From an uncultured Sphingomonadaceae bacterium (lineage in GTDB: Bacteria > Pseudomonadota > Alphaproteobacteria > Sphingomonadales > Sphingomonadaceae): a DNA stretch of 64,000 nucleotides. The notes under the pieces were generated by a model. That model was not told where the DNA came from. It made no database searches and worked only from the letters and a program-made list of their open reading frames with translations. The stretch spans positions 1,048 through 65,047 of the forward strand of contig CAZWMK010000002.1 of assembly GCA_964635065.1 (NCBI GenBank). Reading direction: 5' to 3'. Position 1 is the first letter of the stretch. Every line of letters begins with the position of its first letter. Positions 1 through 19,060 of this stretch are shown in pieces. The position numbers and the translations under genes were made by a program.

Positions 1-216
1 GATGAAGCCTGCCTTGCGCCTGCGCCAGTTTTGTCGCCGGATGAGATCAAGGCCATCCGCGAAGCTGAGCATGTGTCGCAGCCGGTGTTCGCGCGCTATC
101 TCAACGTGTCGAAGAACCTAGTGTCGGACTGGGAGCGCGGAGCGAAGAAACCGGGTGGCCCGGCACTGCGGCTGTTGTCGATCATCCAGCGCAGCGGGCT
201 GGATGCGGTTGCGTAA
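1..216 (+). CDS. XRE-family HTH antitoxin-like protein (COG2944 / YiaG-HigA type), 5' end outside window
   Basis: The frame is open from nt 1. 'VSQPVFARYLNVSKNLVSDWERGAKKPGGPALRLLSII' is the classic HTH_3 pattern of this antitoxin family. Any partner toxin would lie left of the window. Confidence 0.6.
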   Translation, partial: DEACLAPAPVLSPDEIKAIREAEHVSQPVFARYLNVSKNLVSDWERGAKKPGGPALRLLSIIQRSGLDAVA

Positions 217-395
217 ACCGGGACATTATCACACCGTATCCCCAGCTGCATGAAACGGATTTCACCGGTTTGAAATCGATGAGCTTGACGGTTCCGCGAT
301 GAGGAGCACACAGTCTCTGCTGACGGGTACGATCCACCTGATCGAGTTAATATATAGAAACTTCCGGAAAATGGAGATGTCAGATTTTCAAGTCA

Positions 396-836
396 TTGTT
401 CGGCAAGCCCGAAGCTAGTCCGCCTCCCACGATCATTCGGGATCTGAACGGTCTGAAGCCCCACCTAGCACAGGCCGGTTATTCTATTGAAGACAGGCCG
501 TCCGTCGAAATCCTTGGTGTCCCGATGGAACGCGTCCGCATGAACCAAGCAGGAGTAGTCTCTGCAGTTGGATTCGGGGGCGGGTATTTTCATATAGTGC
601 GTATGATCGGGCTTACGCGGACATTGACGCCGAAGGAGATCGTCGATTTTAACGCAAGTGTCCAAATTTTCAACGTTACGCCCAATGATGAACCCCCGAG
701 CGCTATCATAAAAACGCATGTTCCGGCGCGATATGGTGCAGTACTTCAAACGATAATAGACTTGCTTTCATATTCCGATGATGCAGTAAAAAAGCTTATT
801 GCAGTCGTTGGCGAAAGTAGTGTGAAGGGGATATAA
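396..836 (+). CDS. YbjN-like (T3SS-chaperone-like fold) hypothetical protein
   Basis: 146-aa ORF in very AT-rich DNA. Its layout resembles the YbjN family ('LAQAGYSIED', 'IVDFNASVQIFNV', C-terminal helix). The start is uncertain: TTG at 396 has no good SD. Confidence 0.4.
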   Translation: MFGKPEASPPPTIIRDLNGLKPHLAQAGYSIEDRPSVEILGVPMERVRMNQAGVVSAVGFGGGYFHIVRMIGLTRTLTPKEIVDFNASVQIFNVTPNDEPPSAIIKTHVPARYGAVLQTIIDLLSYSDDAVKKLIAVVGESSVKGI

Positions 837-837
837 A

Positions 838-1233
838 TTGGAAAATACGTTTATCCAGACGCAAGATTTGCGCTCACTTGATAAGGCAATTAAAAAAATT
901 GGCATTGAATGCATCGAAGGGCGCGAAAATGGTGTTCCCGTCTTAACTGTTACAGTTGGACGCATTCTGTTTATGGCTATGATTCACAATCAGTGCCTAA
1001 AGCTCATCTATCGCTTACGAGAAGATAATTTTCAGGGTGGCGTAGCATTCGCCAACCACTGGAACTCGATGAATTTTCTTGGCACGTTAATCCCAATGAC
1101 CGATGGCTTCGTAATGAAATATGAAAGCCTTGTAAGTCACGGTCTTATTGTAGGAAATCTCACAGATACGCTGACATTGTTTGCGGCTTCTGTAGATAAA
1201 TTTCTGGACGAGTGGTTCACGCTCACATCGTAG
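838..1233 (+). CDS. YbjN-like (putative sensory transduction regulator family) protein
   Basis: TTG start 8 nt after an AAGGGG SD and 1 nt after the upstream stop. 'LDKAIKKIGIECIEGRENGVPVL' and 'FANHWNSMNFLGTLIPMTDGFVMKYESLV' match the YbjN pattern (N-terminal L..L...G, central aNxWN motif). Confidence 0.5.
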   Translation: MENTFIQTQDLRSLDKAIKKIGIECIEGRENGVPVLTVTVGRILFMAMIHNQCLKLIYRLREDNFQGGVAFANHWNSMNFLGTLIPMTDGFVMKYESLVSHGLIVGNLTDTLTLFAASVDKFLDEWFTLTS

Positions 1234-1261
1234 CAGTTATGGAGGGTTCTCGCATCGGTGT

Positions 1262-1471
1262 TTACCCGAATACTAGACCCAATAGAAACAGACCTAGAGC
1301 AACTGGGATCGCCAGAATCATCAGTTGCGCCATGCAGCCTGCAGACCAGCATCCAGCGGCAACCCCATTTGAAACTGCGCCCTCAACCTTTTTTCCAGAT
1401 GGATTTAATACGAAGCCAGCGATGGCTCCGAAAACCACTATGACTACAATGATGGTGAAAATCGTTCCCAT
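1262..1471 (-). CDS. Small membrane protein with two predicted TM helices
   Basis: Hydrophobic stretches 'GTIFTIIVVIVVFGAIAGFVL' and 'MAQLMILAIPVALGLFLLGLVF', with a 'GCWSAGC' loop. ATG at 1471 follows a GAGAG SD 19 nt after the upstream stop. An alternative TTG at 1498 overlaps that stop. Confidence 0.45.
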   Translation of the reverse strand: MGTIFTIIVVIVVFGAIAGFVLNPSGKKVEGAVSNGVAAGCWSAGCMAQLMILAIPVALGLFLLGLVFG

Positions 1472-1490
1472 GTTGGCTCTCAGATTCCCT

Positions 1491-2765
1491 TTATTCAAAT
1501 ATCAATTCTGAGCGGAAAAATCCGCTGATGATGAAAGTTGAGGATGGACCATCCTTCTGGATTTCTATCGATCCAATCTCCTTTACCCATCGGGCGGAAT
1601 CGTCATATGTCGGCTCCGCAACCGTTGGCTGTTCACGCAGTTCAGAAATTGCATCATGCTTCACACCTTGGCGGACTATGACCCGGGTGACGGGCTTCGA
1701 GCCGAGGGGAATAGGCCTTGGCAAGTCGATGTTGAGTTCACGACCTAGATAACCTTCGTCGAACTTGGTCCGAAGCATCTCTGCCTGTCCAAGTTCAGCA
1801 CGCGCACGCGCATCTCGCTCTGCGACGACAGCCTCACGTCGTTTCTCAGCCTTCTTTGTTTTTCGTCGGACGGCGGTGACTGAATAGCCCAACGGCGCTG
1901 CGGTTACTTCTGCTGTTGCCTCGAATCCCGCCAGCCTCAATGCCTTCGCGATCATCCCGCGTGTCGCTGCATCGTCCGCGTTTCCGATCTGATCCGGCTT
2001 TACGATCAAAGGCTCGTCAGGCTCCGGATCAATGATCGTCAGCTTGCTCTTTTCGCGGCCATCAACTCCGATTGACAAGCCGCATACAAGACGCTGGCCG
2101 GTATGCCCTGGCGGGAAAATTACCGACAACTTTTGCGCCACTCCGCCGACTGGCGGTGGCCCTTTCCCTCCGAGTTGATTGCTGCTGTACCCAACGCCCG
2201 ATTGCGTTCCCTTGCACTCCACTACATGCCATACGCCGGACAAATCACGGGCAACGAAATCCGGCGTTTTGTTCGGGCCGCGCTTGGCGGCGCGATGCTG
2301 CGTAGCGCCCGTTGATGCAGCAAAACGCTGCATGAAATATCGACCGTCGACAATCCTGTCGAACCGCAGATTGTCGTTGAGCCAAAGCATTGGAAGGCCC
2401 ATCCCGAAATCGTCACTGAGGATTGTCTTCTGGTGAGCGTCCAAATCCGCGAAGCTCTGCGTTAGTCGCAAATCAGGGTCTGCCGAGATCGCCGCGAGAT
2501 AACGCACCCAAGCCCAAAATTCGCTCAATGACACCCCAGTTGTGGCAATGGGCGTCGTCAAGAATCCGATCATCAGAAGTGCTGATGGAACATGAATATC
2601 AACGGTCTGAACACCGCTGTGGAATGTGCTAGGAAACGTTGGCAACGCTCCCTTGCGCGGCCAAGTGGCCTTCTTGATGTCGATTGCCAACGATCGGTTC
2701 ATAGCCTCGAATGGGTTCCCATAGTTTGCATTTCTTTCACCGGCACGAGGTTCGGCGAATTGCAC
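1491..2765 (-). CDS. Uncharacterised PD-(D/E)xK nuclease-like protein with charged linker and C-terminal domain
   Basis: 424-aa ORF with a GTG start. 'KTPDFVARDLSGVWHVVECKGTQSG' is a D...ExK restriction-endonuclease-fold core (TnsA/Mrr-like 'tPDF..EvK'), preceded by acidic 'LSDDFGMGLP'. A Lys/Arg/Glu-rich segment 'RRKTKKAEKRREAVVAERDARARAELGQAEM' follows, then a roughly 90-aa C-terminal domain. Confidence 0.6.
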   Translation of the reverse strand: MQFAEPRAGERNANYGNPFEAMNRSLAIDIKKATWPRKGALPTFPSTFHSGVQTVDIHVPSALLMIGFLTTPIATTGVSLSEFWAWVRYLAAISADPDLRLTQSFADLDAHQKTILSDDFGMGLPMLWLNDNLRFDRIVDGRYFMQRFAASTGATQHRAAKRGPNKTPDFVARDLSGVWHVVECKGTQSGVGYSSNQLGGKGPPPVGGVAQKLSVIFPPGHTGQRLVCGLSIGVDGREKSKLTIIDPEPDEPLIVKPDQIGNADDAATRGMIAKALRLAGFEATAEVTAAPLGYSVTAVRRKTKKAEKRREAVVAERDARARAELGQAEMLRTKFDEGYLGRELNIDLPRPIPLGSKPVTRVIVRQGVKHDAISELREQPTVAEPTYDDSARWVKEIGSIEIQKDGPSSTFIISGFFRSELIFE

Positions 2766-2850
2766 AGTCTTGATGGCTATCTGCTACAAATAGGTCAATT
2801 CTGACCGATTTTTCGAACTCACGCGGGCTATCCATCATGCGCCGGATCGG

Positions 2851-3153
2851 CTACAAAATCCGCGTGAAACCAAGGCCTTTGGCATCGGAAATCGGGCGGG
2901 GAAGTGGTCGATCACATCGGTCCAAATAGGGAACAACTTCGCGCACACCGTACGCGACAAATCGCAGGTAAAAGCCAGAATAAAATATTTTTATATCAAC
3001 ATGATACTGGCTATGCGAGAAATTGGCAGCTTCTCCGTCGAATCTGACTTGCGAATAGCCCTCGCCATTCACGCAAATCACATCTGGCGAAAAGGCGAGG
3101 AAATCTCCCAGCTTCAACTGGCTTGACGGCGCGATTGAACATAAGTAGAACAA
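2851..3153 (-). CDS. Hypothetical protein (weak call)
   Basis: 100-aa ORF in about 40% GC DNA upstream of the nuclease-like gene. TTG start without a convincing SD and no recognisable motif. Confidence 0.25.
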   Translation of the reverse strand: MFYLCSIAPSSQLKLGDFLAFSPDVICVNGEGYSQVRFDGEAANFSHSQYHVDIKIFYSGFYLRFVAYGVREVVPYLDRCDRPLPRPISDAKGLGFTRIL

Positions 3154-3201
3154 CCTTGCCTTTCGCAGTGTGATCCAGGCTCCATGAACATGGAGTCCAG
3201 C

Positions 3202-3510
3202 ATGACACGCAATGTTTCAATCCAGACCTACCTCCCCAAGCATGTCGCTGCCTGGGTGCAGGACGAAGCCACCCGCGCCAAGCAGAGCCGCAGTCAGTGG
3301 ATCGGCGCTATCGTCACGGACCTGTTTCAAGGGCAGGAGTTCCGAGAGGAGGGGCGCAAGAACGTCGATCACATCAAGCGGCAGTTGACCTTCATTGCCG
3401 TTGCGCTCGATGGCTTGCTTCTCGAACATCCTGACAAGACCCTTCGCGGCAGGGTGCATGACGCCCACCGGCGCAAGGTGACACAGGCCGATCCGGAGCA
3501 AGGCCAATGA
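3202..3510 (+). CDS. Ribbon-helix-helix (CopG/Arc-like) DNA-binding protein of the island
   Basis: 'RNVSIQTYLPKHVAAWVQDEATRAKQSRSQWIGAIVTDL' is a beta-strand plus two-helix RHH pattern. GGAG lies 6 nt before ATG 3202. The stop overlaps the next ORF (ATGA). Confidence 0.55.
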   Translation: MTRNVSIQTYLPKHVAAWVQDEATRAKQSRSQWIGAIVTDLFQGQEFREEGRKNVDHIKRQLTFIAVALDGLLLEHPDKTLRGRVHDAHRRKVTQADPEQGQ

Positions 3511-3770
3511 TCCGCCGCACAGGATCAATGTTGCGCGAGAGCGAACAGCTTGCGCTGCCTTTTACCCAGCCCGCTGCGATGGCAACCACGCTCGAGCCGA
3601 TCTCCGTCAGGATCGCGGACGCCATCCGGTTGACCGGCATCCGGCGATCCAAGCTCTATGAACTGATCGCTTCGGGCGATCTGGAGACGGTCAAGATCGG
3701 GCGGTGCACTCTGGTCCCGGTGGCCAGCCTGCACGCTCTGATCGAGCGTGCGCGGCAAGGGCGGTTATGA
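3507..3770 (+). CDS. AlpA/excisionase-family HTH protein
   Basis: 'ISVRIADAIRLTGIRRSKLYELIASGDLETVKIGRCTLVPVASLHALIE' is the typical AlpA/MerR-like excisionase HTH. The true start may be ATG 3579, giving 63 aa. Confidence 0.7.
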   Translation: MIRRTGSMLRESEQLALPFTQPAAMATTLEPISVRIADAIRLTGIRRSKLYELIASGDLETVKIGRCTLVPVASLHALIERARQGRL

Positions 3771-5015
3771 CGCGCTGTGGCCGAACTTCGGGCGCAGGAT
3801 GGTCGCGCCGTCTCGCAACTGGTCGATGTAATCGGACCAGTGCTGCATCATGCGGACGCGCTCCTCCCAGTACTGGCCACGGGCATACGCGCGGCGGATA
3901 GAGTTACCGTCTGCATGGGCCAGTTGTCGCTCGATGGCATCGGGGTTCCAGATGCCCATTTCGTTGAGCAAAGTGGCGGCCATGGCGCGGAAGCCGTGGC
4001 CCGTCATCTGATCCTTGCTAAAACCCAGCCGACGCAAGGCCGCATTGATCGTGTTGTCCGACATCGGGCGGTCAAGAGCGCGCAACGACGGAAACAGGAA
4101 GACGCTGTAGCTGGCGTCATGCTCAATTTCGCGAATGATGGCCAAGGCCTGCCGTGACAGAGGTACGGCGTGAGGACGGCGCATTTTCATCTTGTGGTCC
4201 GGGATTGTCCAGACGCACCTGTCGAAGTCGAACTCGCTCCATTCCGCCCAGCGCAGTTCGCCGGGGCGGACAAATAAGTGCGGCAGGAGGCGCAGCGCGA
4301 TCCGGGTCAGCGCATTGCCTTCATAGTCCGCGACAGCGCGAAGTAGTGCGCCAGCATCGGTTGCAGTCGTGATCGCTGCCCGGTGATTGGTGCGCGGGGT
4401 GACGAGCGCACCGCGCAGGTCCGAGCAGATGTCCCGCTCGGCCCGCGCCGTGGCGATAGCATAGCGAAAGACCTGGCTGCAGGTGCTGCGGATGCGGTTG
4501 GCGGTGTCGTACCGCTTCGAGGCTTCGATCTTCTTGAGGACGAGCAGCAGTTCGTGGGCGGTGATTTCCGAGATCGGTCGCTTGCCCAAGGCCGGGTAGG
4601 TTTGCGCCAGCAACCAGCGCGCCTTCTTGAGAGTAATGGCTGCCAGCCCTTCCTTCTCGATCTTCTCCAGCCATTCTTCCGCCACGGCCTGGAACGTGTT
4701 GGTGGCGGCGATCGATTTGGCGATCTTGTCCAGCTTGGCCTGTTCAAGCGGATCAAGCCCCTTGGCGAGTTTGCGGCGCGCTTCGAGCAGCAGCTCGCGC
4801 GCATCGCCCAGCAGAATCTCCGGCCAGCGTCCGAACGACAACGTCCGTTGCTGTCCGCCGAAGCGATAGTTCATGCGCCAGTATCGGATACCAGTGGTTT
4901 TCACGAGCAGGTACAGGCCGTCGCGATCCGACAGCTTGTAATCCTTCTCTCGGGGTCTGGCGTGCTTCACCGCGTTTGCGGTCAGGCCCGTCTTGCGTTT
5001 CGCACCTTCCGACAT
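3765..5015 (-). CDS. int: Tyrosine-type site-specific integrase (P4-like, DUF4102 N-terminal domain)
   Basis: N-terminus 'LTANAVKHARPREKDYKLSDRDGLYLLVKTTGIRYWRMNYRFGGQQRTLSFG'. The C-terminal catalytic region has 'HGFRAMAATLL' and 'RQLAHADGNSIRRAY'. It lies adjacent to the tRNA 3' end. Confidence 0.92.
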   Translation of the reverse strand: MSEGAKRKTGLTANAVKHARPREKDYKLSDRDGLYLLVKTTGIRYWRMNYRFGGQQRTLSFGRWPEILLGDARELLLEARRKLAKGLDPLEQAKLDKIAKSIAATNTFQAVAEEWLEKIEKEGLAAITLKKARWLLAQTYPALGKRPISEITAHELLLVLKKIEASKRYDTANRIRSTCSQVFRYAIATARAERDICSDLRGALVTPRTNHRAAITTATDAGALLRAVADYEGNALTRIALRLLPHLFVRPGELRWAEWSEFDFDRCVWTIPDHKMKMRRPHAVPLSRQALAIIREIEHDASYSVFLFPSLRALDRPMSDNTINAALRRLGFSKDQMTGHGFRAMAATLLNEMGIWNPDAIERQLAHADGNSIRRAYARGQYWEERVRMMQHWSDYIDQLRDGATILRPKFGHSAS

Positions 5016-5179
5016 TGATGGACCTCCGCATTCATGCTCCGGGTCCGATCCATCATCTGTACCATCATTGTACCCGGATGCAGGTGGAACCGTCCGAACC
5101 GATGCGGGCGATAATACCAGAAAAAGTGCTGGAAAACAGCCGTTTGATGGACGTTACCGGACGTCTTCAAACGGAGAAA

Positions 5180-5253
5180 TGGAGGCCCGAGCCGGAATCG
5201 AACCGGCGTGCAAGGATTTGCAGTCCTCTGCGTAACCACTCCGCCATCGGGCC
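5180..5253 (-). tRNA. tRNA-Cys (anticodon GCA)
   Basis: The reverse complement reads GGCCCGATGGCGGAGTGGTTACGCAGAGGACTGCAAATCCTTGCACGCCGGTTCGATTCCGGCTCGGGCCTCCA. It has a 7-bp acceptor stem GGCCCGA/TCGGGCC, anticodon loop CTGCAAA, T-loop GGTTCGATTCC and an encoded CCA. Confidence 0.92.
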
Positions 5254-5404: not shown

Positions 5405-5911
5405 TCAGCCCGGACGGGCAGGTGAAAGCCGGTCGATGGCGCCGCTGTCCAGCAAGGGCGCGGCCTCAATGTGATGGGCATCCATCAGCACGGCCAACCG
5501 TTCCATGGCCGCAAGGATCATCGCCTGCTCCCACGGCGGAAGCGCGGCAAAACGGTCGATGAATGTCACCTGCAAGGGATCCGGCGCATTTGCGAGCGCA
5601 ACCTTGCCTTCAGGCAACATGCTGAGAAGAAACTGGCGCTTGTCCCGGTCGCTGCGCTGGCGCTGCACGAAACCCAGGGCCTCGAGGCGGTCGACGATGG
5701 TGGTGATCGTTGCCTGACTGAATTGAAGTGCCTGCGCGATCGTACCGGGCGTCGCCCCTTGCCGTGCATCAATCTCGCGCAAGACGAGCAATTGCGACGG
5801 CGTCAGGCCGGTTGCCGTTGCAAGCTGGCGGCTGCCGATTTCGGTGGCGCGCAGCACCCGTCGCAGGGCGCGCAATGTCAGCGAAGCGATTTCCGAATCC
5901 ATGCGCTCATG
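5405..5911 (-). CDS. ectR: MarR-family regulator, EctR-like (divergent from ectA)
   Basis: Winged-HTH 'LTPSQLLVLREIDARQGATPGTIAQALQFSQATITTIVDRLEALGFVQRQRSDRDKRQ'. It sits divergent to ectABCD, the position typical of EctR. The start is uncertain (ORF extends to 5962). Confidence 0.7.
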   Translation of the reverse strand, partial: HERMDSEIASLTLRALRRVLRATEIGSRQLATATGLTPSQLLVLREIDARQGATPGTIAQALQFSQATITTIVDRLEALGFVQRQRSDRDKRQFLLSMLPEGKVALANAPDPLQVTFIDRFAALPPWEQAMILAAMERLAVLMDAHHIEAAPLLDSGAIDRLSPARPG

Positions 5912-5962
5912 CATAGCCCCAAGTGCGAAGCCACGCCAGAATGGACGCCGCATTCTGGTCAA

Positions 5963-6192
5963 CCTTGCAAAATATTACTTTATAATATAAAACATATTTC
6001 AGCCTAAGGGTTGAACCCCCTGTGGAAAAACCTATATTTTTAGCCATTAAATCGCCAGAAAACAGGCTTGGCACCGAAATTTAATTCGGGAGACGAATTA
6101 TAACCCCCCAAGCGACAACAACCGCCACACGCGCGCAGCATCGCAAACAGAATGAAAATGATGCGGCATCGAATGTCAGCTTTCGCCAGCCC
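5963..6192. promoter_or_regulatory. AT-rich ectR/ectA divergent control region
   Basis: 'TTGCAAAATATTACTTTATAATATAAAAC' can be read as TTGCAA-N17-TAAAAC. It contains the imperfect palindrome TATTA-CTTTA-TAATA. No experimental support. Confidence 0.3.
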
Positions 6193-6690
6193 ATGGCGAC
6201 GGATGGCCCGGCGATCACGGCCCTGATCGCTGCGTGCCCGCCGCTTGATGGCAACTCGGCCTATTGCAACCTGTTGCAGTGCAGCGACTTTGCCGACACC
6301 TGCATCGTCGCCGAACATGCGGGTGCCATCGTCGGCTGGGTATCAGGTTACAGATCGCCTGCTGCCCGGGAGAATTTTTTCATCTGGCAGGTCGCCGTAG
6401 CGCCGGACGCACGGGGACAAGGGTTGGCACAGCGGATGATCGATGCCTTGCTCGCCCGTCCCGCAGCCGCCAGCGCCGTTTATCTGACGACGACGATCAC
6501 GAACGACAATCGCGCCTCATGGGCCCTGTTCGAGGGGCTGGCCCGCGTCTGGCAGGCGCCATTCACAAAAAGCGTTCGTTTCGATCAGGACATCCATTTC
6601 GCAGGTGCGCACGCCACTGAATGGCAAGTCCGCATCGGCCCACTGCCCGCACGCGCGGCTGCCCCCCCTTCAAGGAGCATGACCTTATGA
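6193..6690 (+). CDS. ectA: L-2,4-diaminobutyrate acetyltransferase
   Basis: 'DGPAITALIAACPPLDGNSAYCNLLQCSDFADTCIVAE' and 'FIWQVAVAPDARGQGLAQRMIDALL' are the EctA/GNAT signature. The conserved 'FRQP' lies just upstream of the first ATG with no canonical start in frame. Confidence 0.88.
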   Translation: MATDGPAITALIAACPPLDGNSAYCNLLQCSDFADTCIVAEHAGAIVGWVSGYRSPAARENFFIWQVAVAPDARGQGLAQRMIDALLARPAAASAVYLTTTITNDNRASWALFEGLARVWQAPFTKSVRFDQDIHFAGAHATEWQVRIGPLPARAAAPPSRSMTL

Positions 6691-7994
6691 CAAACGCCCA
6701 TCCCATCCCCAGCCCCGGCACGCCCGATACCGCCATTTATGAACGGCGGGAATCGGCTGTTCGCAGCTATGCCCGATCGCTTCCGCGCCAGTTCACGCGC
6801 GCGGAAGGTGTGTGGATGCACGACAATCAGGGAGGGCGTTACCTCGACTTCCTGTCGGGATGTTCGACCCTGAACTATGGCCACAACCACCCGGTGCTGA
6901 AACAGGCCCTGCTCGATTATATCGCAGCCGACGGCATCACCCATGGCCTCGACCTCCACACGGATGCCAAGGCGGATTTCCTTGATGCCCTGGAAACCCA
7001 TATTCTGGAACCGCGCAACATGGACTATCGCGTCATGTTCACGGGACCGACAGGCACCAACGCCGTCGAGGCTGCCATCAAGCTGGCCCGCAAGGTGACT
7101 GGCCGCGAACTGGTGATTGCCTTCACCAATGGCTTTCACGGCATGACGCTTGGCGCCCTCGCCTGCACCGGCAATGCAACCAAGCGCGCCGGCGCTGGCG
7201 TGCCTCTCGCCCATGTCTCGCACGAGCCGTACGACGGCTATCACGGCCCGGACGTCGATACTGCGGACCTGCTCGAGCGCCGCCTGTCTGATCCGTCAAG
7301 CGGCCTGGACGCGCCCGCAGCCATTCTGGTGGAAACGGTGCAGGGCGAAGGCGGACTCAATGCGGCATCACCGGAATGGATGCGCAGGATCGCTGCGATC
7401 GCCAAACGCCACGGCGCACTGCTGATCGTCGACGACATTCAGGCAGGCTGCGGCCGCACCGGCGGCTTTTTCAGCTTCGAAGGCATGGGCTTCACGCCGG
7501 ATATCGTCACCATGGCGAAATCACTGTCGGGCATGGGCCTGCCCTTCGCCCTGACCCTGTTCCGGCCCGAACTCGACCAATGGTCGCCCGGCGAACACAA
7601 TGGCACCTTCCGGGGCAACAATCACGCCTTCGTGACGGCGGCCGCTGCGCTCCGTCATTTCTGGAGCACCAATGCCTTCCAGAAGGACGTTGCCCGCCGC
7701 GGCGGGCTGCTTGAGCGGCGACTGGACGCCATGGCCAAAAACCATGGCCTGTCCACACGTGGACGAGGCATGATGCAGGGCATCAACATGGGGTCGGGCG
7801 ACATTGCCGCGGCCGTGACCGCCCGCTGCTTCACGCAGGGGCTCATCCTCGAAACCAGCGGTCCGCACGACGAGATTGTGAAGGTGCTTGCCCCGCTTGT
7901 CATCGACGACGCGCTCCTCGCCGCAGGTCTCGACATTCTGGAAGACAGCATCGGCGAAACCATGGCCACGCCCTTTGGCGTCGCCGCCGAATAA
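6687..7994 (+). CDS. ectB: Diaminobutyrate--2-oxoglutarate transaminase
   Basis: '[52 protein letters not shown]' and '[19 protein letters not shown]', with the PLP lysine in 'TMAKSLSG'. ATGA overlap with the ectA stop. Confidence 0.95.
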
Positions 7995-8025
7995 ACGACG
8001 GCTCAGCAGCAGGGAAATCAGATTC

Positions 8026-8439
8026 ATGATCGTCCGTTCGCTCAGGGAAATCCGTAAAACGGATCGAAACGTCCAGTCAAAACAGTGGGAAAGCGCCCGT
8101 CTGCTGCTCAAGGACGACCAGATGGGCTTCTCCTTCCACGTCACCACGATGTACGCGGGGGAAGAACTGCACATGCATTACCAGAACCATCTCGAAGCCG
8201 TGCTGGTGCTGAAAGGCACAGGCACGATCGAGGATCTGGGAACAGGCATCACCCATGATCTGGCGCCGGGCGTCATGTATGCGCTGAATGCCCATGACAG
8301 GCACATCGTGCGGCCTGCAACCAATATCCTGTGCGCCTGCGTTTTTAATCCGCCCGTCACTGGCAGCGAAGTCCATGACGAAACTGGCGCCTATCCCGCC
8401 GATCCAGAACGCGTGCGCGAGGCCGCACTGGAAGACTGA
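8026..8439 (+). CDS. ectC: L-ectoine synthase (cupin)
   Basis: '[66 protein letters not shown]' is a near-canonical EctC N-terminus. Confidence 0.95.
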
Positions 8440-8466
8440 CGTTCAGACCCAATCAGGGAGAGTCCC

Positions 8467-9387
8467 ATGAAAGACCTCTACCCATCGCGCCACGCACCCG
8501 TGGCGCAGTTTTTGCCGCGCCTTGATCCCGTCGTGCACAGCGACTGGAACAATAATGCGCCGCTCAGCCTGGCACAAACCGATGCCTTCGACCGGAACGG
8601 CTTTCTTGTGCTGGAAAATCTCTTCTCAGCCGCCGAGGTTGCCTATCTGCAACACGAGGCACGCGCACTTCTGGGTGCGCCCGATGCACTTGCCACGGAA
8701 ACGGTCATCACAGAGCCAGGCAGCCGCGAAGTCCGTTCGATCTTCAACATTCACGTGCAAAGCCGGGCCATCGCGCGTCTTACCGCCGATTCACGTCTGG
8801 CGGGCGTCGCCCGTTTTCTGCTGGGTGACGATGTGTACATTCATCAGTCGCGGCTGAATTACAAACCCGGCTTTCAGGGTAAGGAATTCTACTGGCACAG
8901 CGATTTCGAGACCTGGCACGTCGAAGACGGCATGCCACGCATGCGGGCGCTGTCGATGTCGGTGCTTCTGGCCGAAAACACGCCGCACAACGGGCCACTG
9001 ATGCTGATTCCCGGATCGCATCACAGCTATCTGACCTGCGTGGGCGAAACGCCTGAAAATCATTACCGCATGTCCCTGAAAAAACAGGAATATGGCGTTC
9101 CGGACGAGGAAAGTCTTGCCGATCTTGCCGCGCGGCACGGCATTGTCGCCCCGACCGGAAAACCCGGATCGGTCGTGATCTTCGATTGCAATATCATGCA
9201 CGGCTCGAACGGCAACATCACGCCCTATCCGCGCGCCAATGCCTTTCTCGTTTACAATGCCATGACAAACCGTCTGGCCGCGCCCTTTGGGGCCGTGAAG
9301 CCGCGCCCGGATTTCATTGCCGCGCGCGACAAACCACAGGCAATTGTGCCCGTGTCGGGGCCGCTGATAGAGGAAGTGACGGCATGA
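8467..9387 (+). CDS. ectD: Ectoine hydroxylase (Fe(II)/2-oxoglutarate dioxygenase)
   Basis: 'FYWHSDFETWHVEDGMPRMRALSMSVLL' is the EctD signature region with the HxD iron ligands, followed by 'IMHGSNGNITP'. Confidence 0.95.
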   Translation: MKDLYPSRHAPVAQFLPRLDPVVHSDWNNNAPLSLAQTDAFDRNGFLVLENLFSAAEVAYLQHEARALLGAPDALATETVITEPGSREVRSIFNIHVQSRAIARLTADSRLAGVARFLLGDDVYIHQSRLNYKPGFQGKEFYWHSDFETWHVEDGMPRMRALSMSVLLAENTPHNGPLMLIPGSHHSYLTCVGETPENHYRMSLKKQEYGVPDEESLADLAARHGIVAPTGKPGSVVIFDCNIMHGSNGNITPYPRANAFLVYNAMTNRLAAPFGAVKPRPDFIAARDKPQAIVPVSGPLIEEVTA

Positions 9388-9646
9388 TGGCCGGCCATAG
9401 CGTCGAGAAAATCGGCGGCACATCAATGGCTGCCACGGCCACCCTGTTCGACAATGTGCTGATTGCCGGACGCAAGGGGCCGGATCTCTACAATCGCATT
9501 TTTGTTGTCTCCGCTTATGCCGGCATCACCAACCTGCTCCTGGAGAACAAGAAAAACAGAACGCCGGGCGTCTACGCGCCTTTGTCATGGACGATGGCAG
9601 CAATAGCTGGCGTACGGCGATGGAGGCGGTGCGCGCGGCCATTCTG
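9384..9646 (+). pseudogene. ask: Ectoine-cluster aspartokinase (ask_ect), N-terminal remnant only, frameshifted
   Basis: ATGA overlap with ectD. 'MMAGHSVEKIGGTSMAATATLFDNVLIAGRKGPDLYNRIFVVSAYAGITNLLLENKK..PGVYA' is an Ask N-terminus. The reading continues in another frame as 'FVMDDGSNSWRTAMEAVRAAIL' (1-nt loss near 9576-9581). About 85 of roughly 470 expected codons remain. Confidence 0.75.
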
Positions 9647-10401
9647 ACAATCACCGTAGCGTTGAGCGGCGGTCTGACGTTGCTGAACATGCTCTACCAG
9701 CAACGCCCCGGCGCCGCCAACAAGCCGGTGAAGGGCTATGTGCAGATTGGCTCGAACGACAGGTGCGGGTCGGCGACTGGATCGAGATGGAGCAACTGAA
9801 CGCCGACGGCGACGTCATCGACATCGCCCTGCACACGGTAAAAGTGCAGAATTTTGACAAGACGATCACCACCATACCCACGCATCGCCTGGTGTCGGAA
9901 AGTTTCCGCAACTGGCGCGGCATGTCGGAATCGGGTGGCCGCCGGATCATGCGCGCCTTGTTGCTCGATCAGACCAGCGTGCGCTTCCTCGACGCCAAGG
10001 ACATCGATCAGCTGTCGCGTTTAACCCTGCTGCACGACTATCTTGCGCACAAACAGGCGGAGATCGCGACATGGAACAAGGCGCATGCCACCAACGTGCC
10101 GGATGAACGCCGGCTGACGAATATCGGCACCTTCCGCGCCTATGTGCATGCCTATCTCAAGGCGCGGTCGGATATCGCGCAGGACAAAACCCTGATGGTC
10201 CGCCAGCTGGCTCTCGGCGAAAATGGCCTGCCGTTGCAGGTCTATGCCCTTGCCGACACGACCGACTGGGGCGAATATGAAGCGATCCAGGCCGATATCT
10301 TCGATCACCTGATCGCCATCATGCCGGCATTCGGTTTGAACCTCTATCAACGTCCGGCAGGCAGCGACCTCGTTCGATCCGCCTTTGCCCAGTGGCTCTG
10401 A
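9647..10401 (+). pseudogene. YbdG/MscM-type mechanosensitive channel, 5'-truncated and frameshifted
   Basis: 'VGDWIEMEQLNADGDVIDIALHTVKVQNFDKTITTIPTHRLVSESFRNWRGMSESGGRRI', 'TNIGTFRAYVHAYL' and 'YEAIQADIFDHLIAIMPAFGLNLYQ' align with my recollection of E. coli YbdG from about residue 170 onward. 'GYVQIGSND' sits in a different frame (shift near 9760). The TM region is absent. Confidence 0.8.
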
Positions 10402-10424
10402 TGGATAATTTTTTTGGTTTCCTT

Positions 10425-10710
10425 GGGTTGCAGGCAGATTCATCCCATGCTTTCGCGGCGCTCATGGAAGATCAGCCTGTTGAAGTTGTAGGCCAGGTTG
10501 CAAAGGGTCAGCTTCGCTTCGGCACGGGCCAGGCCGATGGTTCGGATGAACAGCCCGAATCTGTTCTTCTGATGGGCGAAGACGTGTTCGATATGGCGCG
10601 GATCGAGGACTTGGCAGCGTTGGCCCGCGCCGCTGCCTTCGGCATGGGCTTGCCCATGGGTTTGCGCCGATGGATGCGCGATATAAGCATTCGGCCCAAC
10701 CGCCACTTAC
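10425..10710 (-). mobile_element. IS5-family element remnant (terminal approx. 285 bp, transposase C-terminus, frameshifted)
   Basis: 'RHIEHVFAHQKNRFGLFIRTIGLARAEAKLTLCNLAYNFNRLIF' is an IS5/DDE_Tnp_1 C-terminus. The upstream part 'IHRRKPMGKPMPKAAARANAAKSSIRA' is in another frame. The putative terminus is GGGTTGCAGGCAGATTCATCC. Confidence 0.7.
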
Positions 10711-10944
10711 CTGTTTTCTAGCTTGTTTTTTCCTGCAATGCCTTGAAAGGTAAGTACAATTTGTCGTTTCGAGCACCTTGATTCCAGCCCCATACGTGAT
10801 GCGACGCCAAGGTGAGATTCAGCACTGTTATTCTTTCTGCCATCTCGGGCGGCTGAAGACCGCCGCGATGGTTTCGGCACGCCCAACCAACAGGAATCAA
10901 CAGGATGGTTGCGTGAGCCGTCTTCGCTTCCATCGCCGCCGTTA

Positions 10945-11392
10945 TTAGCGGAGGTGCTGGAAGTCCTGCTGCATCTGAATGGGGTTCGAGGGATCGGCCC
11001 CCATCTGCACGAGGATTGCCCGGACGGCCCCCGCAACGCGCTTCTTGAGGGTGGTCTGGTTACCGGGCTGCGATGACGTTGATGTGGAGTGGCGTGCTGC
11101 CGGCCGCAATGGCAAGCAGGCGGTCGATGTTCGGATGTGCGCCCGGACGCTGGCGTGCGTCTGCCGTATGTTCGCCAAACAGTTGCAAGCCATATTCGGC
11201 GGCCTTTGTATCCAGCATGTCAAAGCATTGGTTCAGATAATGATAGACCGCGAGCGAGCCTTGCTTGCCCGGCTGGTTTTCGATGCACGCGACAATCACG
11301 CCCTTGTCGTCGAGGAGGTCGATGCGGTGCACGTCGTCGATGGCCGGAAGATTCTCTAGGTTGTTTCTGAAGCTTGCGTCGGGTTGAAGCAT
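10945..11392 (-). pseudogene. Roadblock/LC7 (MglB-like) domain protein, apparently frameshifted near its 3' end (tentative)
   Basis: 'NLENLPAIDDVHRIDLLDDKGVIVACIE' and 'IDRLLAIAAGSTPLHINVIAAR' resemble the Roadblock/LC7 pattern. Reading continues in another frame ('NQTTLKKRVAGAVRAIL...'). No partner GTPase is nearby. Confidence 0.3.
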
Positions 11393-11560
11393 GGCCGAAA
11401 GTCCTTGAAGCCTGATGGTTGCGCGCAGGGGTTTAACAACTTCATGCCGCTCGTGTCACGACATTGTGCAGATCAAAATGCAGTGATGCCTCGAACAGGA
11501 TGCGGTCGATAGAAAGTCGACGGGGCGTAAGGTTGCCTGCTTTCCTGCTGCGATACATAA

Positions 11561-11611
11561 TTCTGCTTGTGCGTCGATTCGCGCGCATGGTGTCAATCAA
11601 GGAGGACTATC
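11561..11611 (+). promoter_or_regulatory. Candidate ROSE-like RNA thermometer in the hsp20 leader
   Basis: 5'-UUCUGCUUG (11561-11569) can pair with the SD region CAAGGAGGA (11598-11606), leaving a single G-G opposition. The UYGCU-type anti-SD is the hallmark of ROSE elements upstream of alphaproteobacterial sHSP genes. Confidence 0.35.
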
Positions 11612-12040
11612 ATGAACACTCTCGCGAAACGTAACCGTTTCTTTGATGACTTCTTTCGTGATTTCCCGTTCGGCTATGCCATCAAGCCCTTGCACGGCGA
11701 TCCGCTGCTTTCGCCTGACAAGATCAAGATCGATGTCAGAAATAATGAAAAGAGTTTCACCGTGCAGGCCGAAATGCCGGGTCTCAACAAGGACGATATT
11801 CATGTCACGGTCGATGGGAATATCGTCACCATCCAGGCCGAGGTGAAGCAATATGACGCCGACACCGAAGATGGTCAGACTGTCCACTCCGAACGTTATT
11901 ATGGCGCGATCCAGCGCAGCTTTGCGCTGCCCTCAGCGGTCGCGGAAGCCAATGTGACGGCAAAATACGAGAATGGTATTCTGGTTCTGAACCTGCCGAA
12001 GGAAGATGCAGCGGCGACCAGAAAGGTTGTTATCAGCTGA
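11612..12040 (+). CDS. Hsp20/alpha-crystallin family small heat-shock protein
   Basis: AGGAGG SD precedes the start. 'FTVQAEMPGLNKDDIHVTVDGNIVTIQAEVK', 'ERYYGAIQRSFALP' and 'AKYENGILVLNLPK' form a canonical alpha-crystallin domain. Confidence 0.92.
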   Translation: MNTLAKRNRFFDDFFRDFPFGYAIKPLHGDPLLSPDKIKIDVRNNEKSFTVQAEMPGLNKDDIHVTVDGNIVTIQAEVKQYDADTEDGQTVHSERYYGAIQRSFALPSAVAEANVTAKYENGILVLNLPKEDAAATRKVVIS

Positions 12041-12064
12041 ACGCCCGGTCAGGGGCGGTCGGCT

Positions 12065-12096
12065 GGCCGGGAGGGACAGCCTGTCGCCTCCCGGCC
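12065..12096. terminator. GC-rich hairpin between convergent hsp20 and yeaQ-like genes
   Basis: GGCCGGGAGG / CCTCCCGGCC 10-bp stem with a 12-nt loop and no clear U-tract. Confidence 0.3.
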
Positions 12097-12105
12097 GCGC
12101 GATGG

Positions 12106-12372
12106 TCAGCGGATGGACTTGCGCTGAACCAGATTGACAATTCCAAGCAGGATGACCGCGCCGACAAAGGCGACGATCAGGCCGGTGATGGAAAATTCCT
12201 GCACGCTGCCCCTGATGCCGAACAGCGGGCCGGAGACCGCATTTCCGATCAATGAGCCGACAATGCCGACGATAATATTCCACAAGAGGCCCATCGAGGC
12301 ATCGCGGTTCATCACGAGACTGGCGAGCCATCCAGCGACGCCGCCTACGATCAGTGCAATGATCCAACCCAT
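12106..12372 (-). CDS. GlsB/YeaQ/YmgE-family stress-response membrane protein
   Basis: 'GWIIALIVGGVAGWLASLVM', 'GLLWNIIVGIVGSLIGN' and 'LIVAFVGAVILLGIVNLV' are typical of the transglycosylase-associated family. Confidence 0.85.
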   Translation of the reverse strand: MGWIIALIVGGVAGWLASLVMNRDASMGLLWNIIVGIVGSLIGNAVSGPLFGIRGSVQEFSITGLIVAFVGAVILLGIVNLVQRKSIR

Positions 12373-12384
12373 TTTATGCTCTCC

Positions 12385-13143
12385 TCAGTTGCGGATTTCT
12401 ACTTGTGTAACGCTGACGCCTACATATTGATCCGTTTCGAGAGGGGCTTCTTCGTCACGTGACGACAACAGAAACCGCCAGATCAGCGCACCAATGGCAG
12501 CGCCGATGAGAGGGGCGACCCAGAACAGCCACAATTGTCCCATGGCCGCAGTGTCGGCGAAAAGCGCCACGCCTGTCGAACGCGCCGGGTTGACCGAGGT
12601 GTTGGTGACGGGAATCGAGATCAGGTGAATGAGAGTCAGCGCCAGTCCGATCGCAACCGGGGCGAAGCCGGCCGGCGCCGTCCGTGCCGTTGCGCCGAGG
12701 ATCACGATAAGAAAACCTGCGGTCAGAATGATTTCCGTCAGGAGTGCGGCACCCATCGCATATCCACCGGGCGAGAGCGCGCCATAGCCGTTCGTGGCAA
12801 AACCACCTGCACTCCAGCCTGCCTTGCCGGACGCAACGGCATATAGCGCGGCCCCGGCGGCGACCGCGCCGAGGATCTGGGCGATCCAGTAGGGGATGAG
12901 ATCCCGCCAGGCGAAGCGCTTGGCCAGCGCAAGGCCAAGCGAAACTGCGGGATTGAAATGGCCGCCCGAGATGCCGCCCACGGCATAGGCCATGGTCAGA
13001 ACGGTCAGACCGAAGGCCAGCGATACACCAGCAAAACCGATGCCGAGTTCGGGAAAGGCCGCAGCCAGAACCGCCGACCCGCAACCGCCGAACACAAGCC
13101 AGAATGTGCCGATCAATTCGGCAGATAATTTGCGTAACATCAT
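12385..13143 (-). CDS. aqpZ: Aquaporin Z
   Basis: '[21 protein letters not shown]' with two NPA boxes ('[11 protein letters not shown]', '[11 protein letters not shown]'). It has an unusual roughly 25-aa C-terminal extension. Confidence 0.95.
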
Positions 13144-13210
13144 TCTCTCCCCTGGTTGTTCATCCCGTGATGTTCAGCCTTGGCAGCAACCCCTGGCGCA
13201 AGGCGCTGGA

Positions 13211-13804: not shown

Positions 13805-14104
13805 GGAGCATTCTTTCCGGTGCAATAATGACTGGAGCTTCGCAGGGCATCAGAAACTGCCAGTGCGACTTGTTCAGGAAGCGTACACGGCAAATAATTA
13901 TTTTGTGGATGCTGCCACATAATTACAGTTTGATCGATGTTTTTTTTACAAGGAAATTCAAGGCGACACCCTTGATGTGTGCGAGGGGATAAACTGTTGT
14001 GAAAACAACCATTCACGCTGTTACGATGATAAATCATAGCTCTTGTCAGTGGCAGGCTGATTTCATTTTCCCTCAAGCCGCGATCTGTGGTTGATGCTGG
14101 CCGC

Positions 14105-19030: not shown

Positions 19031-19060
19031 CCTCGGGATTGCAGGAGGCCATTCGCTTTA

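What the first reader, a model, noticed from the sequence alone, without database searches (positions are those of the whole stretch)
1262..3153. Candidate undescribed defence-type module: orphan PD-(D/E)xK nuclease-like protein plus a tiny 2-TM protein as island cargo
The 424-aa ORF carries a restriction-endonuclease-fold core ('TPDFVARDLSGVWHVVECKGTQ': D...ExK, preceded by acidic 'LSDDFGMG'). A highly charged helical linker and an unassignable roughly 90-aa C-terminal domain follow. A 69-78 aa protein with two TM helices and a 'GCWSAGC' loop starts 19 nt downstream, or overlaps if TTG 1498 is used. A weak 100-aa ORF lies upstream on the same strand. No methyltransferase, helicase, ATPase, SMC or cyclase partner is present. 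I cannot place the module in any named system I know (it is not Shedu, Hachiman, Lamassu, Cap4/CBASS, Kiwa or a type II R-M layout). A nuclease paired with a small membrane protein, sitting in the cargo slot of an integrase island, is the genomic context in which new anti-phage or anti-plasmid systems are typically found.
Basis: partly seen in the sequence, partly recalled or inferred. Interest (0 to 1): 0.8.

Follow-up and report, generated by a model that had tools for sequence, protein, structure and literature searches.

The report
Lone unnamed nuclease gene; membrane neighbour unrelated
The large gene is a real, unnamed restriction-endonuclease-fold protein that travels between bacteria as a single gene on mobile DNA, probably as a one-protein defence. 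The small membrane protein next to it belongs to a different, unrelated gene module.

Summary
The big ORF is a real gene, best read as 403 aa (ATG 2702, not GTG 2765). It founds a large unannotated family: 476+ hits, and 637 clusters at 50% identity. It has no Pfam, NCBIfam, PADLOC, PHROG or PDB sequence match.

An AlphaFold model of the core shows the canonical alpha-beta-beta-beta-alpha-beta layout. D148, E162 and K164 are invariant. Nearly all top Foldseek hits are PD-(D/E)xK nucleases, but none is statistically significant.

The two-gene module is refuted:
- Across 54 genomic loci plus plasmid and metagenome contexts the nuclease gene has no conserved neighbour.
- It moves as a single gene. 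In this clade the shared unit is window 1492-2955, from the stop codon to about 253 nt upstream, found in six different flanks.
- The 69-aa membrane gene is real, but it travels with the two genes on the opposite strand (window 359-1491). That trio also sits on small MobA/MobL plasmids that lack the nuclease.
- The 100-aa upstream ORF is not conserved.

The gene's contexts include integrative elements, an ICE, a prophage edge and plasmids. Its neighbours there include Gabija, dCTP deaminase, RES, KAP NTPase and Wadjet genes. The most likely role is a solitary defence nuclease with a swappable C-terminal domain. That role is inferred, not shown.

The parts
1491..2702 (-). Gene for a 403-aa PD-(D/E)xK-fold nuclease-like protein (the listed ORF reaches GTG 2765; the real start is ATG 2702).
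   Evidence: 476+ homologues of about 403 aa all begin at the MNRSL/MDRxL position. The AF2 model has pLDDT 82.6 and pTM 0.87. There is no Pfam, NCBIfam, PADLOC, PHROG or PDB sequence hit.
2007..2447 (-). Nuclease core, residues 86-232. It includes SDDFGMG (2397-2417) on helix alpha-1 and PDF...ECKGTQ (2202-2264) on strands beta-2 and beta-3.
   Evidence: D148, E162, K164, Q167, K145, Q190 and D225 are invariant across 63 relatives at 23-44% identity. The domain model has pLDDT 91 with alpha-beta-beta-beta-alpha-beta order. Top Foldseek hits are AdnA, EcoRV, cap-snatching endonucleases, SduA, Cas4, RecE and HincII, with E from 0.03 to 1.
1494..2006 (-). Charged helical linker (residues 233-310) and beta-rich C-terminal domain (311-403). 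This is the variable half of the family.
   Evidence: Mean pairwise identity is 0.72 in the core and 0.37-0.41 here. In the wider family it is 0.38 against 0.10-0.13. Distant relatives align only to positions 1-270. No fold assignment was obtained.
1492..2955 (-). The unit that is actually shared between elements in this clade: the gene plus about 253 nt of 5' leader and promoter region.
   Evidence: This stretch is 94-97% identical to L001, L022, L055-57 and L075-79. The upstream homology boundary (window 2953-2965) is preceded by six different upstream flanks; the downstream boundary at the stop codon (1491/1492) is seen against L001 and L055-57, whereas L022 and L075-79 share the downstream sequence too.
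1262..1471 (-). Gene for a 69-aa protein with two hydrophobic stretches and an invariant GAVSxG.AAGC.SAGC loop. It is a real gene but not a partner of the nuclease.
   Evidence: Six homologue clusters were found, five of exactly 69 aa. It follows the nuclease only in the window, L022 and L075-79. In L080 and L081 it follows a MobA/MobL relaxase that is unrelated to the nuclease; in L082/L083 only a truncated unidentified ORF lies upstream.
359..1491 (.). A separate three-gene module: the TM gene (-), a 131-aa gene at 838-1233 (+) and a roughly 135-146-aa gene at 396-836 (+).
   Evidence: This block is 72-76% identical in DNA to L080-L083, with the homology ending exactly at 1491. The 131-aa protein is 76% identical to the one in L081. 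The 131-aa gene is next to the TM gene in all nine loci and the roughly 130-135-aa gene wherever the contig allows (absent in L081).
2851..3153 (-). The 100-aa ORF, which is not a gene.
   Evidence: It straddles the cassette boundary at 2955. Its N-terminal part differs in every context, and in L075 a stop codon sits directly upstream of the shared C-terminal part. No family hit was found.
3184..5253 (.). Island backbone: a 108-aa gene (3184-3510 +), an excisionase-like HTH_17 gene (3507-3770 +), a tyrosine integrase (3765-5015 -) and tRNA-Cys (5180-5253 -).
   Evidence: Pfam and NCBIfam hits support the gene assignments and ARAGORN and Rfam support the tRNA. The 108-aa protein is 34% identical to the 109-aa gene beside the coupling protein and TrwC relaxase in L075.

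Best explanation
Window 1491-2702 (-) encodes a 403-aa member of a large, unnamed family of PD-(D/E)xK (restriction-endonuclease-fold) proteins.

Shown:
- The conserved first 270 residues or so carry an invariant D148 / E162-x-K164 / Q167 site. They are predicted to form the canonical nuclease core.
- The last 130 residues or so (charged helix plus beta-rich domain) vary or are replaced across the family.
- The gene has no conserved partner. It spreads as a single gene with its own 5' leader (here 1492-2955) among integrative elements, ICEs, prophage ends, plasmids and variable chromosomal spots. It occurs in Alpha-, Beta- and Gammaproteobacteria, Acidobacteriota and, distantly, Bacillus.
- The adjacent 69-aa membrane gene belongs to a neighbouring three-gene module and is not part of the nuclease's system.

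Inferred:
- The protein is a metal-dependent DNA endonuclease that works alone as a one-protein defence against incoming phage or plasmid DNA.
- The conserved N-terminal module would cut, and the variable C-terminal domain would set what is recognised or when the enzyme fires. This would resemble methylase-less, modification-dependent (type IV-like) or Shedu/Upx-type solitary nucleases.
For: Fold and active site:
- D148, E162, K164, Q167, K145, Q190 and D225 are invariant in 63 relatives at 23-44% identity.
- The domain model (pLDDT 91) orders the elements as alpha(SDD)-beta-[helix]-beta(PD)-beta(ExK)-alpha-beta.
- About 24 of the top 25 Foldseek PDB hits are PD-(D/E)xK nucleases, including AdnA, EcoRV, SduA, Cas4, RecE and HincII.
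- The only sub-threshold sequence hits are to other PD-(D/E)xK families: Card1, and Hjc and HSDR_N.

Solitary gene:
- No neighbour cluster is shared across 55 loci.
- The 122 nearest neighbours fall into 104 different Pfam families.
- DNA homology between contexts is confined to the gene plus 0-400 nt upstream and 0-180 nt downstream in most clades. One clade shares about 600 nt downstream.

Mobile and defence context:
- RelE/HTH toxin-antitoxin plus integrases.
- ICE cargo beside an AAA_15/AAA_21 ATPase.
- KAP NTPase.
- Integrase-proximal slot of a prophage.
- GajB in 3 loci, with RES and DNA methylase elsewhere.
- Plasmids carrying VapC/Phd and a 1851-aa helicase, Dcm+DUF4928+RES, Wadjet JetD plus a small alarmone synthetase, or an anti-phage dCTP deaminase.

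Variable C-terminus.

Precedent:
- 8 of 13 PD-(D/E)xK defence systems in DefenseFinder are single genes (PMC13099982).
- A methylase-less nuclease has a C-terminal domain that sets its specificity (PMC12191111).
Against: - No Foldseek or profile hit is statistically significant. The best are E=0.029 for structure and 0.93 for sequence, so the fold call rests on consistency, not on any single hit.
- No nuclease activity or phage or plasmid phenotype is known.
- I made no statistical test of enrichment near defence genes.
- Several loci sit between ordinary genes with no defence gene nearby: MarR/MutY, nitrate reductase/MarR and ThiC.
- No model in PADLOC-DB v2 matches.
- The family is almost absent from phage records: 0 of 50,697 phages and 1 full-length hit in 2.9 million viral contigs.
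- It is rare on plasmids, in 11 of 72,556.
- The core is unusually well conserved for a defence gene, at 72% identity across bacterial classes.
Confidence: 0.5

Rival explanations
1. One reading: the nuclease and the 69-aa two-TM protein form a two-gene defence module, for example a nuclease plus a membrane effector or anchor.
For: The two genes are 19 nt apart on the same strand with no predicted terminator between them. They are adjacent in the window, L022 and L075-79.
Against: - All the co-occurring loci belong to one lineage that is 96-97% identical.
- The 93%-identical nuclease in L001 and L055-57 has different downstream genes.
- None of about 50 other loci has a small TM gene downstream.
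- DNA homology switches exactly at 1491/1492.
- The TM gene occurs without the nuclease in L080-83; a MobA/MobL relaxase precedes it in L080 and L081, and the 131-aa gene follows it in all four.
Confidence: 0.04
2. The protein is a nuclease that serves the mobile elements themselves. It might cut branched DNA or act in recombination during element replication or transfer, or act against rival elements, rather than defend the host.
For: - Many contexts are integrative or conjugative elements and plasmids.
- The element lineage in L075, L077 and L078 carries a TrwC relaxase and a coupling protein next to the gene; L076 and L079 show only the coupling-protein gene before the contig ends.
- There are weak profile hits to the Hjc resolvase.
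- Structural neighbours include RecB-like, lambda-exonuclease-like and RecE nucleases.
- The core is highly conserved.
Against: - The gene is not linked to any particular relaxase, integrase or replication gene.
- It also sits alone between chromosomal housekeeping genes.
- A variable C-terminal domain is unusual for a housekeeping recombination enzyme.
Confidence: 0.2
3. The 1.46-kb unit is a selfish, free-standing endonuclease gene that promotes its own spread to new sites, in the manner of a homing endonuclease gene.
For: - Homology between contexts is confined to a single gene with sharp ends.
- The 5' end falls within about 20 nt in six different flanks, and the 3' end at the stop codon where the downstream flank differs (L001, L055-57).
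- The same single-gene pattern is seen in other clades.
- Large non-coding gaps surround the gene where it lies between core genes.
Against: - No terminal inverted or direct repeats and no target duplication were found.
- The flanks are not homologous between sites, as homing would require.
- The boundaries differ between clades. In Enterobacter/Pantoea they lie 125 nt upstream and about 600 nt downstream.
- In the window and L075 the cassette sits at the same position of related backbones, since the RHH-like neighbour is 34% identical. That fits ordinary recombination between related elements.
Confidence: 0.06
4. The protein is a self-restrained toxin or addiction factor, or a catalytically inactive DNA-binding protein. 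Either would stabilise or regulate the element rather than attack invaders.
For: - It sits next to toxin-antitoxin pairs in several elements (RelE/HTH, VapC/Phd, RES).
- The overall pI is basic at 9.1.
- No activity has been demonstrated.
Against: - The catalytic residues are strictly invariant, which argues against an inactive protein.
- No conserved small antitoxin-like ORF lies on either side.
Confidence: 0.1

Closest known systems
Solitary PD-(D/E)xK defence nucleases (Shedu SduA; Upx)
   Same: One polypeptide with a restriction-endonuclease-fold core and a D...ExK site, carried on mobile elements or in defence islands, with extra domains thought to control the nuclease. SduA (8ps4) is among the structural neighbours. 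Single-gene PD-(D/E)xK systems are a recognised class (PMC13099982).
   Different: No PADLOC or Pfam model of Shedu or any other system matches. The SduA match is weak (E=0.29, 91 columns). The core here lies in the N-terminal or middle part with the variable domain at the C-terminus. Upx is 1272 aa with two nuclease domains. No phenotype is known for this family.
Methylase-less, modification-dependent (type IV-like) nucleases such as the END nucleases
   Same: A nuclease without a partner methyltransferase, with a conserved cleavage module fused to a swappable C-terminal domain that sets specificity (PMC12191111).
   Different: No inactive EndoIII, SRA or other known modified-base reader was detected in the C-terminal domain. 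Dependence on DNA modification is entirely untested.
RecB-like nuclease domain (AdnA of AdnAB; Cas4; RecE/lambda-exonuclease group)
   Same: These are the best structural neighbours of the core model: AdnA E=0.029-0.27 with TM 0.33-0.37, Cas4 SSO0001 E=0.32, and RecE and LHK-Exo.
   Different: The similarity is below significance. There is no helicase or iron-sulfur module. The Q residue lies 3 positions after the lysine, which I judge from memory not to fit the usual QxxxY spacing. No Pfam PDDEXK_1 or Cas4 hit was found.
Card1/Can2 nuclease domain
   Same: This is the best sequence-profile match in the PDB. It aligns the 'D-x(n)-lHViECK' hairpin.
   Different: E=0.93 over only 36 residues. 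No CARF sensor domain is present and there is no CRISPR context.
Archaeal Holliday-junction resolvase Hjc (PF01870)
   Same: It shares the same 'PD...ExK' hairpin pattern. Two of 63 family members give sub-threshold Pfam hits, the best E=0.0088.
   Different: The hits are below Pfam's threshold. This protein is three times longer, and no evidence for junction resolution exists.
Tn7 TnsA
   Same: It has a similar short motif (PDF...E.K), which I recall from memory only and did not test.
   Different: No Pfam TnsA hit was found even at E<=1. No family recurs among the neighbours, and no rve/Mu-type transposase is among the commonest neighbour families listed. No transposon ends were found.

Membership tests
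PD-(D/E)xK (restriction-endonuclease-like) superfamily | Core alpha-beta-beta-beta-alpha-beta fold | tested here: met
   In the domain model (pLDDT 91) the order is H10-33, E35-40, E70-74, E79-87, H91-98, E122-131. The full-length model shows the same elements.
PD-(D/E)xK (restriction-endonuclease-like) superfamily | Conserved acidic residue at the start of beta-2 and (D/E)xK on beta-3 | tested here: met
   D148, E162 and K164 are invariant in 63 relatives at 23-44% identity. D97 and D98 on helix alpha-1 are at least 90% conserved.
PD-(D/E)xK (restriction-endonuclease-like) superfamily | Significant structural or profile similarity to solved members | tested here: inconclusive
   Top Foldseek hits are almost all PD-(D/E)xK nucleases, but the best is E=0.029 with probability 0.51. 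Card1 scores E=0.93. Hjc and HSDR_N are sub-threshold.
PD-(D/E)xK (restriction-endonuclease-like) superfamily | Metal-dependent nuclease activity | not testable with these tools
   This needs biochemistry.
Shedu (SduA, DUF4263) | Match to DUF4263/SduA profiles | tested here: not met
   No Pfam or PADLOC hit at E<=1. The Foldseek match to 8ps4 is only E=0.29.
Any system in PADLOC-DB v2.0.0 (2023) | Profile match to a component protein | tested here: not met
   No families matched the nuclease, the TM protein or the 100-aa ORF at E<=1.
Type II restriction-modification | Adjacent cognate DNA methyltransferase | tested here: not met
   No methyltransferase domain was found in the eight neighbouring window proteins scanned. 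DNA_methylase appears in only 2 of 122 nearest neighbours across loci.
Type IV (modification-dependent) restriction | Nuclease without a methylase plus a domain that reads modified DNA; cleavage only of modified DNA | not testable with these tools
   The methylase-less state is met. No known reader domain was detected. Substrate dependence needs experiments.
Tn7-like TnsA | TnsA N- and C-terminal domain profiles and neighbouring TnsB/TnsC genes | tested here: not met
   No Pfam hit and no conserved neighbours.
Card1/Can2 (CARF nucleases) | CARF sensor domain fused to the nuclease | tested here: not met
   Only a 36-residue motif aligns, at E=0.93. No CARF hit was found.
   Adjacency is found only in one lineage that is 96-97% identical. 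The TM gene is found without the nuclease in L080-83.
Insertion sequence / integron cassette | Terminal inverted repeats with target duplication, or an attC site after the gene | tested here: not met
   No flanking inverted or direct repeats were found. Against L001 and L055-57, homology ends at the stop codon, which leaves no room for a shared 3' recombination site.

The most novel reading that the evidence does not exclude
The gene plus its roughly 250-nt leader may be an autonomous selfish unit: a free-standing PD-(D/E)xK endonuclease gene that moves itself into unrelated sites without a transposase or integrase. That would explain the sharp single-gene homology boundaries seen in six different flanks and the lone insertions between housekeeping genes.

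The less radical but still new reading is a previously unrecognised one-protein defence family with a conserved cutting module and interchangeable C-terminal sensors. I put that at about 0.45.
Probability: 0.06. Interest if true: 0.8.

Novelty: new member of a known kind. Interest (0 to 1): 0.4.

Why it matters
If the inference holds, this adds a widespread, wholly unannotated family to the set of one-protein nuclease defences. The family spans hundreds of sequence clusters across several phyla. It has a clear conserved cutter and a variable C-terminal domain, which would make it a convenient case for studying how specificity domains are swapped.

For genome annotation, the work gives a fold-level assignment and a set of candidate active-site residues (from conservation and the predicted fold) to proteins now labelled only 'hypothetical'. 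It also shows that tight spacing on one strand (19 nt) is not evidence of a functional pair. Here the junction between two independently mobile modules falls exactly at a stop codon.

Tried and rejected
- **Family and sequence searches.** Scans of Pfam, NCBIfam, PADLOC and PHROGs gave no hit for the nuclease. A single-sequence search and a 35-sequence profile search against PDB sequences also found nothing.
- **Full-length structure searches.** Foldseek of the full-length model against the PDB and against viral structures gave only noise-level hits with long, poor alignments. This is why I modelled the core alone.
- **Exact-sequence look-up.** The window protein itself is not on record.
- **Conserved neighbours.** I found none among ORFs of 60 aa or more, among ORFs of 30-200 aa within 700 nt, or by domain family.
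- **Mobile-element ends and known RNAs.** I searched around the cassette for transposon-like ends, target duplications and known RNA families. I found none.
- **Promoter scan.** It found no convincing promoter in the leader.
- **Phages, viral contigs and E. coli.** No match in phage genomes or E. coli. Only 3 matches, 1 of them full-length, turned up in 2.9 million viral contigs.
- **Literature.** A search by accession numbers returned no papers.
- **Relaxase relationship.** The 403-aa MobA/MobL relaxase that precedes the TM gene in L081 is not a diverged relative of the nuclease. It is unrelated.
- **Paralogy in the TM module.** The 131-aa and 146-aa proteins are not paralogues of each other.
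Full report
**1. What is in the sequence**

The left 5.3 kb of the window is the end of an integrated element. In order it carries:
- tRNA-Cys (5180-5253, -)
- a tyrosine integrase (3765-5015, -)
- an excisionase-type HTH_17 gene (3507-3770, +)
- a 108-aa gene (3184-3510, +)
- the ORFs of the finding
- two genes on the + strand (838-1233 and 396-836)
- the 3' part of an HTH_3 gene cut by the window edge

To the right of the tRNA lie a MarR-type regulator and ectABCD, which are ordinary host genes. G+C falls from about 60% in the host to 45-57% in the element.

**2. The large ORF is a real gene of an unnamed family**

A search of 5.8 billion proteins gave 476+ relatives, with E-values down to 1e-252. 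All are labelled 'hypothetical', all lack a Pfam domain, and nearly all are 398-409 aa. They start at the position of ATG 2702, so the protein is 403 aa, not 424.

An exhaustive profile search found 637 clusters at 50% identity with E<=0.001, and 259 with E<=1e-30. Hosts are Alpha-, Beta- and Gammaproteobacteria, Acidobacteriota and, distantly, Bacillus. No source gives the protein a name.

No model in Pfam, NCBIfam, PADLOC-DB v2 or PHROGs matches, and no PDB sequence does either.

**3. Fold**

The full-length AlphaFold model is confident (pLDDT 82.6, pTM 0.87), but it gave only noise in Foldseek.

In a 63-sequence alignment of relatives at 23-44% identity, the invariant residues are Y68, G100, G142, K145, D148, E162, K164, G165, Q167, Q190, D225 and P226. 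H90, Q91, K92, S96, D97 and D98 are at least 90% conserved.

A model of residues 80-236 alone (pLDDT 91) gives this order:
- a helix carrying SDD
- a strand
- a short helical insert
- a strand starting at D148
- a strand carrying E162-C-K164
- a helix
- a further strand

This is the classic restriction-endonuclease core.

Its Foldseek neighbours in the PDB are almost all PD-(D/E)xK nucleases. They include the AdnA nuclease domain, EcoRV, bunyavirus cap-snatching endonucleases, Shedu SduA, Cas4 SSO0001, LHK-Exo, RecE, HincII, CinB, splicing endonucleases, VRR-NUC, SfsA and NucS. E-values run only from 0.03 to 2.

The only sub-threshold sequence hits point the same way:
- the Card1 nuclease hairpin, E=0.93
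- Hjc in two members, and HSDR_N in one

I therefore accept the fold assignment on consistent but individually weak evidence. The family joins no named nuclease family.

**4. A conserved cutter and a variable tail**

| Region (residues) | Mean pairwise identity, close set | Mean pairwise identity, wide set |
|---|---|---|
| 36-232 | 0.72-0.74 | 0.36-0.38 |
| 271-403 | 0.37-0.41 | 0.10-0.13 |

Distant relatives align only to positions 1-270 and have other C-termini of similar length. None of those C-termini has a Pfam match. The C-terminal domain here is acidic and beta-rich, and I could not assign it.

**5. The gene is solitary**

I collected 54 loci from species-representative genomes, plus metagenome, plasmid and viral loci.
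- Clustering all ORFs within 7 kb found no neighbour shared beyond close lineages.
- The same was true for ORFs of 30-200 aa within 700 nt.
- The 122 nearest neighbours fall into 104 Pfam families.

A small TM gene follows the nuclease only in the window and in L022, which carries the same element.

**6. The membrane gene belongs to another module**

The 69-aa protein is real. It has six homologue clusters, five of exactly 69 aa, with an invariant Cys-containing loop.

Its constant neighbour is the convergent 131-aa gene, usually with a 130-135-aa gene beyond it. This holds in the ICE-like elements L075-79, and in L080-83, where a MobA/MobL relaxase precedes the TM gene in L080 and L081. That relaxase is unrelated to the nuclease. 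The 131-aa protein is 76% identical to its L081 counterpart.

At the DNA level two blocks meet exactly at the nuclease stop codon:
- Window 359-1491 matches L080-83 at 72-76% identity.
- Window 1492-2955 matches L001 and L055-57 at 94% identity, and those loci have different genes downstream.

**7. A single-gene unit**

In this clade the shared stretch runs from the stop codon to about 253 nt upstream of the start. The upstream end falls within about 20 nt in six different flanks.

Other clades show the same confinement to the gene plus short flanks, in Rhodobacterales, Terriglobia and Roseovarius. In Enterobacter/Pantoea plasmids the shared piece extends about 600 nt downstream.

There are no terminal repeats, target duplications or known RNA elements. 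The 100-aa ORF straddles the upstream boundary and is not conserved.

In the window and in L075 the cassette occupies the same slot of related backbones, because the neighbouring 108/109-aa proteins are 34% identical. Ordinary recombination between related elements is therefore enough to explain at least that exchange.

**8. Contexts**

| Context | Loci |
|---|---|
| Small integrase islands with RelE/HTH | L055-57 |
| ICE-like elements with TrwC and a coupling protein | L075-79 |
| ICE cargo beside an AAA_15/AAA_21 ATPase | L062 |
| Integrase-proximal end of a prophage | L070 |
| Beside a KAP NTPase | L064-67 |
| Gabija GajB nearby | 3 loci |
| Plasmid with VapC/Phd, an integrase and a 1851-aa helicase | L072 |
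| Plasmid with Dcm, DUF4928 and RES | L073 |
| Plasmid with Wadjet JetD and a small alarmone synthetase | L074 |
| Plasmid with an anti-phage dCTP deaminase | L084 |
| Plasmid, flanked by IS5/IS6 copies | L085 |
| Lone insertions between housekeeping genes | L058, L063, L068 |

The family is rare. It is in 11 of 72,556 plasmids, in none of 50,697 phages, in no E. coli genome, and as one full-length copy in 2.9 million viral contigs.

**9. Interpretation**

Shown:
- a new PD-(D/E)xK-fold family
- an invariant catalytic triad
- a variable C-terminal domain
- solitary, horizontally mobile inheritance
- no link to the TM gene

Inferred, at about 0.5: a one-protein defence nuclease in which the variable C-terminal domain sets recognition or activation. 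Two precedents exist. Eight of the 13 PD-(D/E)xK systems in DefenseFinder are single genes (PMC13099982). A methylase-less nuclease is known whose C-terminal domain decides specificity (PMC12191111).

The rivals, with my estimates:
- a nuclease that serves the element itself (0.2)
- a self-restrained toxin or an inactive binder (0.1)
- a selfish self-spreading nuclease gene (0.06)

**10. Verdict**

This is a solid new-family candidate of a well-known kind (solitary nuclease cargo on mobile DNA), not a new two-component system. Interest is moderate at 0.4, because uncharacterised island nucleases are common and no mechanism beyond the fold is established.

Noticed in passing
window 359-1491 (TM gene 1262-1471 -, 131-aa gene 838-1233 +, roughly 135-146-aa gene 396-836 +); L075-L083: A conserved three-gene module of unknown function. 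It consists of a 69-aa protein with two hydrophobic stretches and two invariant cysteines in the loop, a 131-aa protein with a weak YbjN-like hit (E=0.011), and a 130-135-aa protein. The trio or most of it sits in ICE-like elements (L075-79) and in L080-83, where a MobA/MobL relaxase is seen in L080 and L081; L081 has the TM and 131-aa genes but no 130-135-aa gene call.
   Followed up: partly
window 1491/1492 and 2953-2965; L001, L022, L055, L075, L076: The nuclease cassette has very sharp homology ends. One falls exactly at its stop codon and the other within about 20 nt in six unrelated upstream flanks. No repeats or hairpins explain this.
   Followed up: partly
window 1-216 (+): This is the 3' part of an HTH_3 antitoxin-type gene, cut by the window edge. 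In the relatives L055-57 and L075-79 it is paired with a RelE-family toxin and followed by two tandem tyrosine integrases. The element therefore continues beyond the left end of the window.
   Followed up: partly
window 3184-3510 (+); L075:3943-4272: The 108-aa protein next to the excisionase is 34% identical to a 109-aa protein that lies beside a coupling protein and a TrwC relaxase in L075. This suggests the window's island is related to a mobilisable or conjugative element backbone.
   Followed up: partly
window 5405-9387: The host flank right of tRNA-Cys is a MarR-type regulator followed by ectA, ectB, ectC and ectD (ectoine and hydroxyectoine synthesis). All have strong NCBIfam matches.
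   Followed up: yes
L010, L020, L041 (about 11280-12135); L010:18717-18763, L020:19722-19768: In a Rhodobacterales subclade the nuclease gene is followed 65-123 nt later by a conserved 267-283-aa calcineurin-like phosphoesterase gene on the same strand. In L010 and L020 a 47-nt stretch matching positions 5180-5226 of the window's tRNA-Cys gene, with no tRNA called there, lies about 7.5-8.5 kb downstream, possibly an island attachment site.
   Followed up: no
L081 (1-10003): The gene order repeats with a period of about 6.1 kb (HigB, 121 aa, 147 aa, 91 aa and so on). This looks like a small circular MobA/MobL plasmid assembled as a tandem repeat.
   Followed up: no
L073:2733-2813 and L084:7681-7761: An 81-nt sequence just downstream of the nuclease gene in the Pantoea plasmid recurs elsewhere in the Enterobacter plasmid at 89% identity. 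It may be a small repeated element.
   Followed up: no
L085 (Paracoccus kondratievae pKON1, record 9473-22672): Here the nuclease gene is bracketed by copies of ISPko5 and, further out, ISPko6. The arrangement resembles a composite transposon.
   Followed up: no
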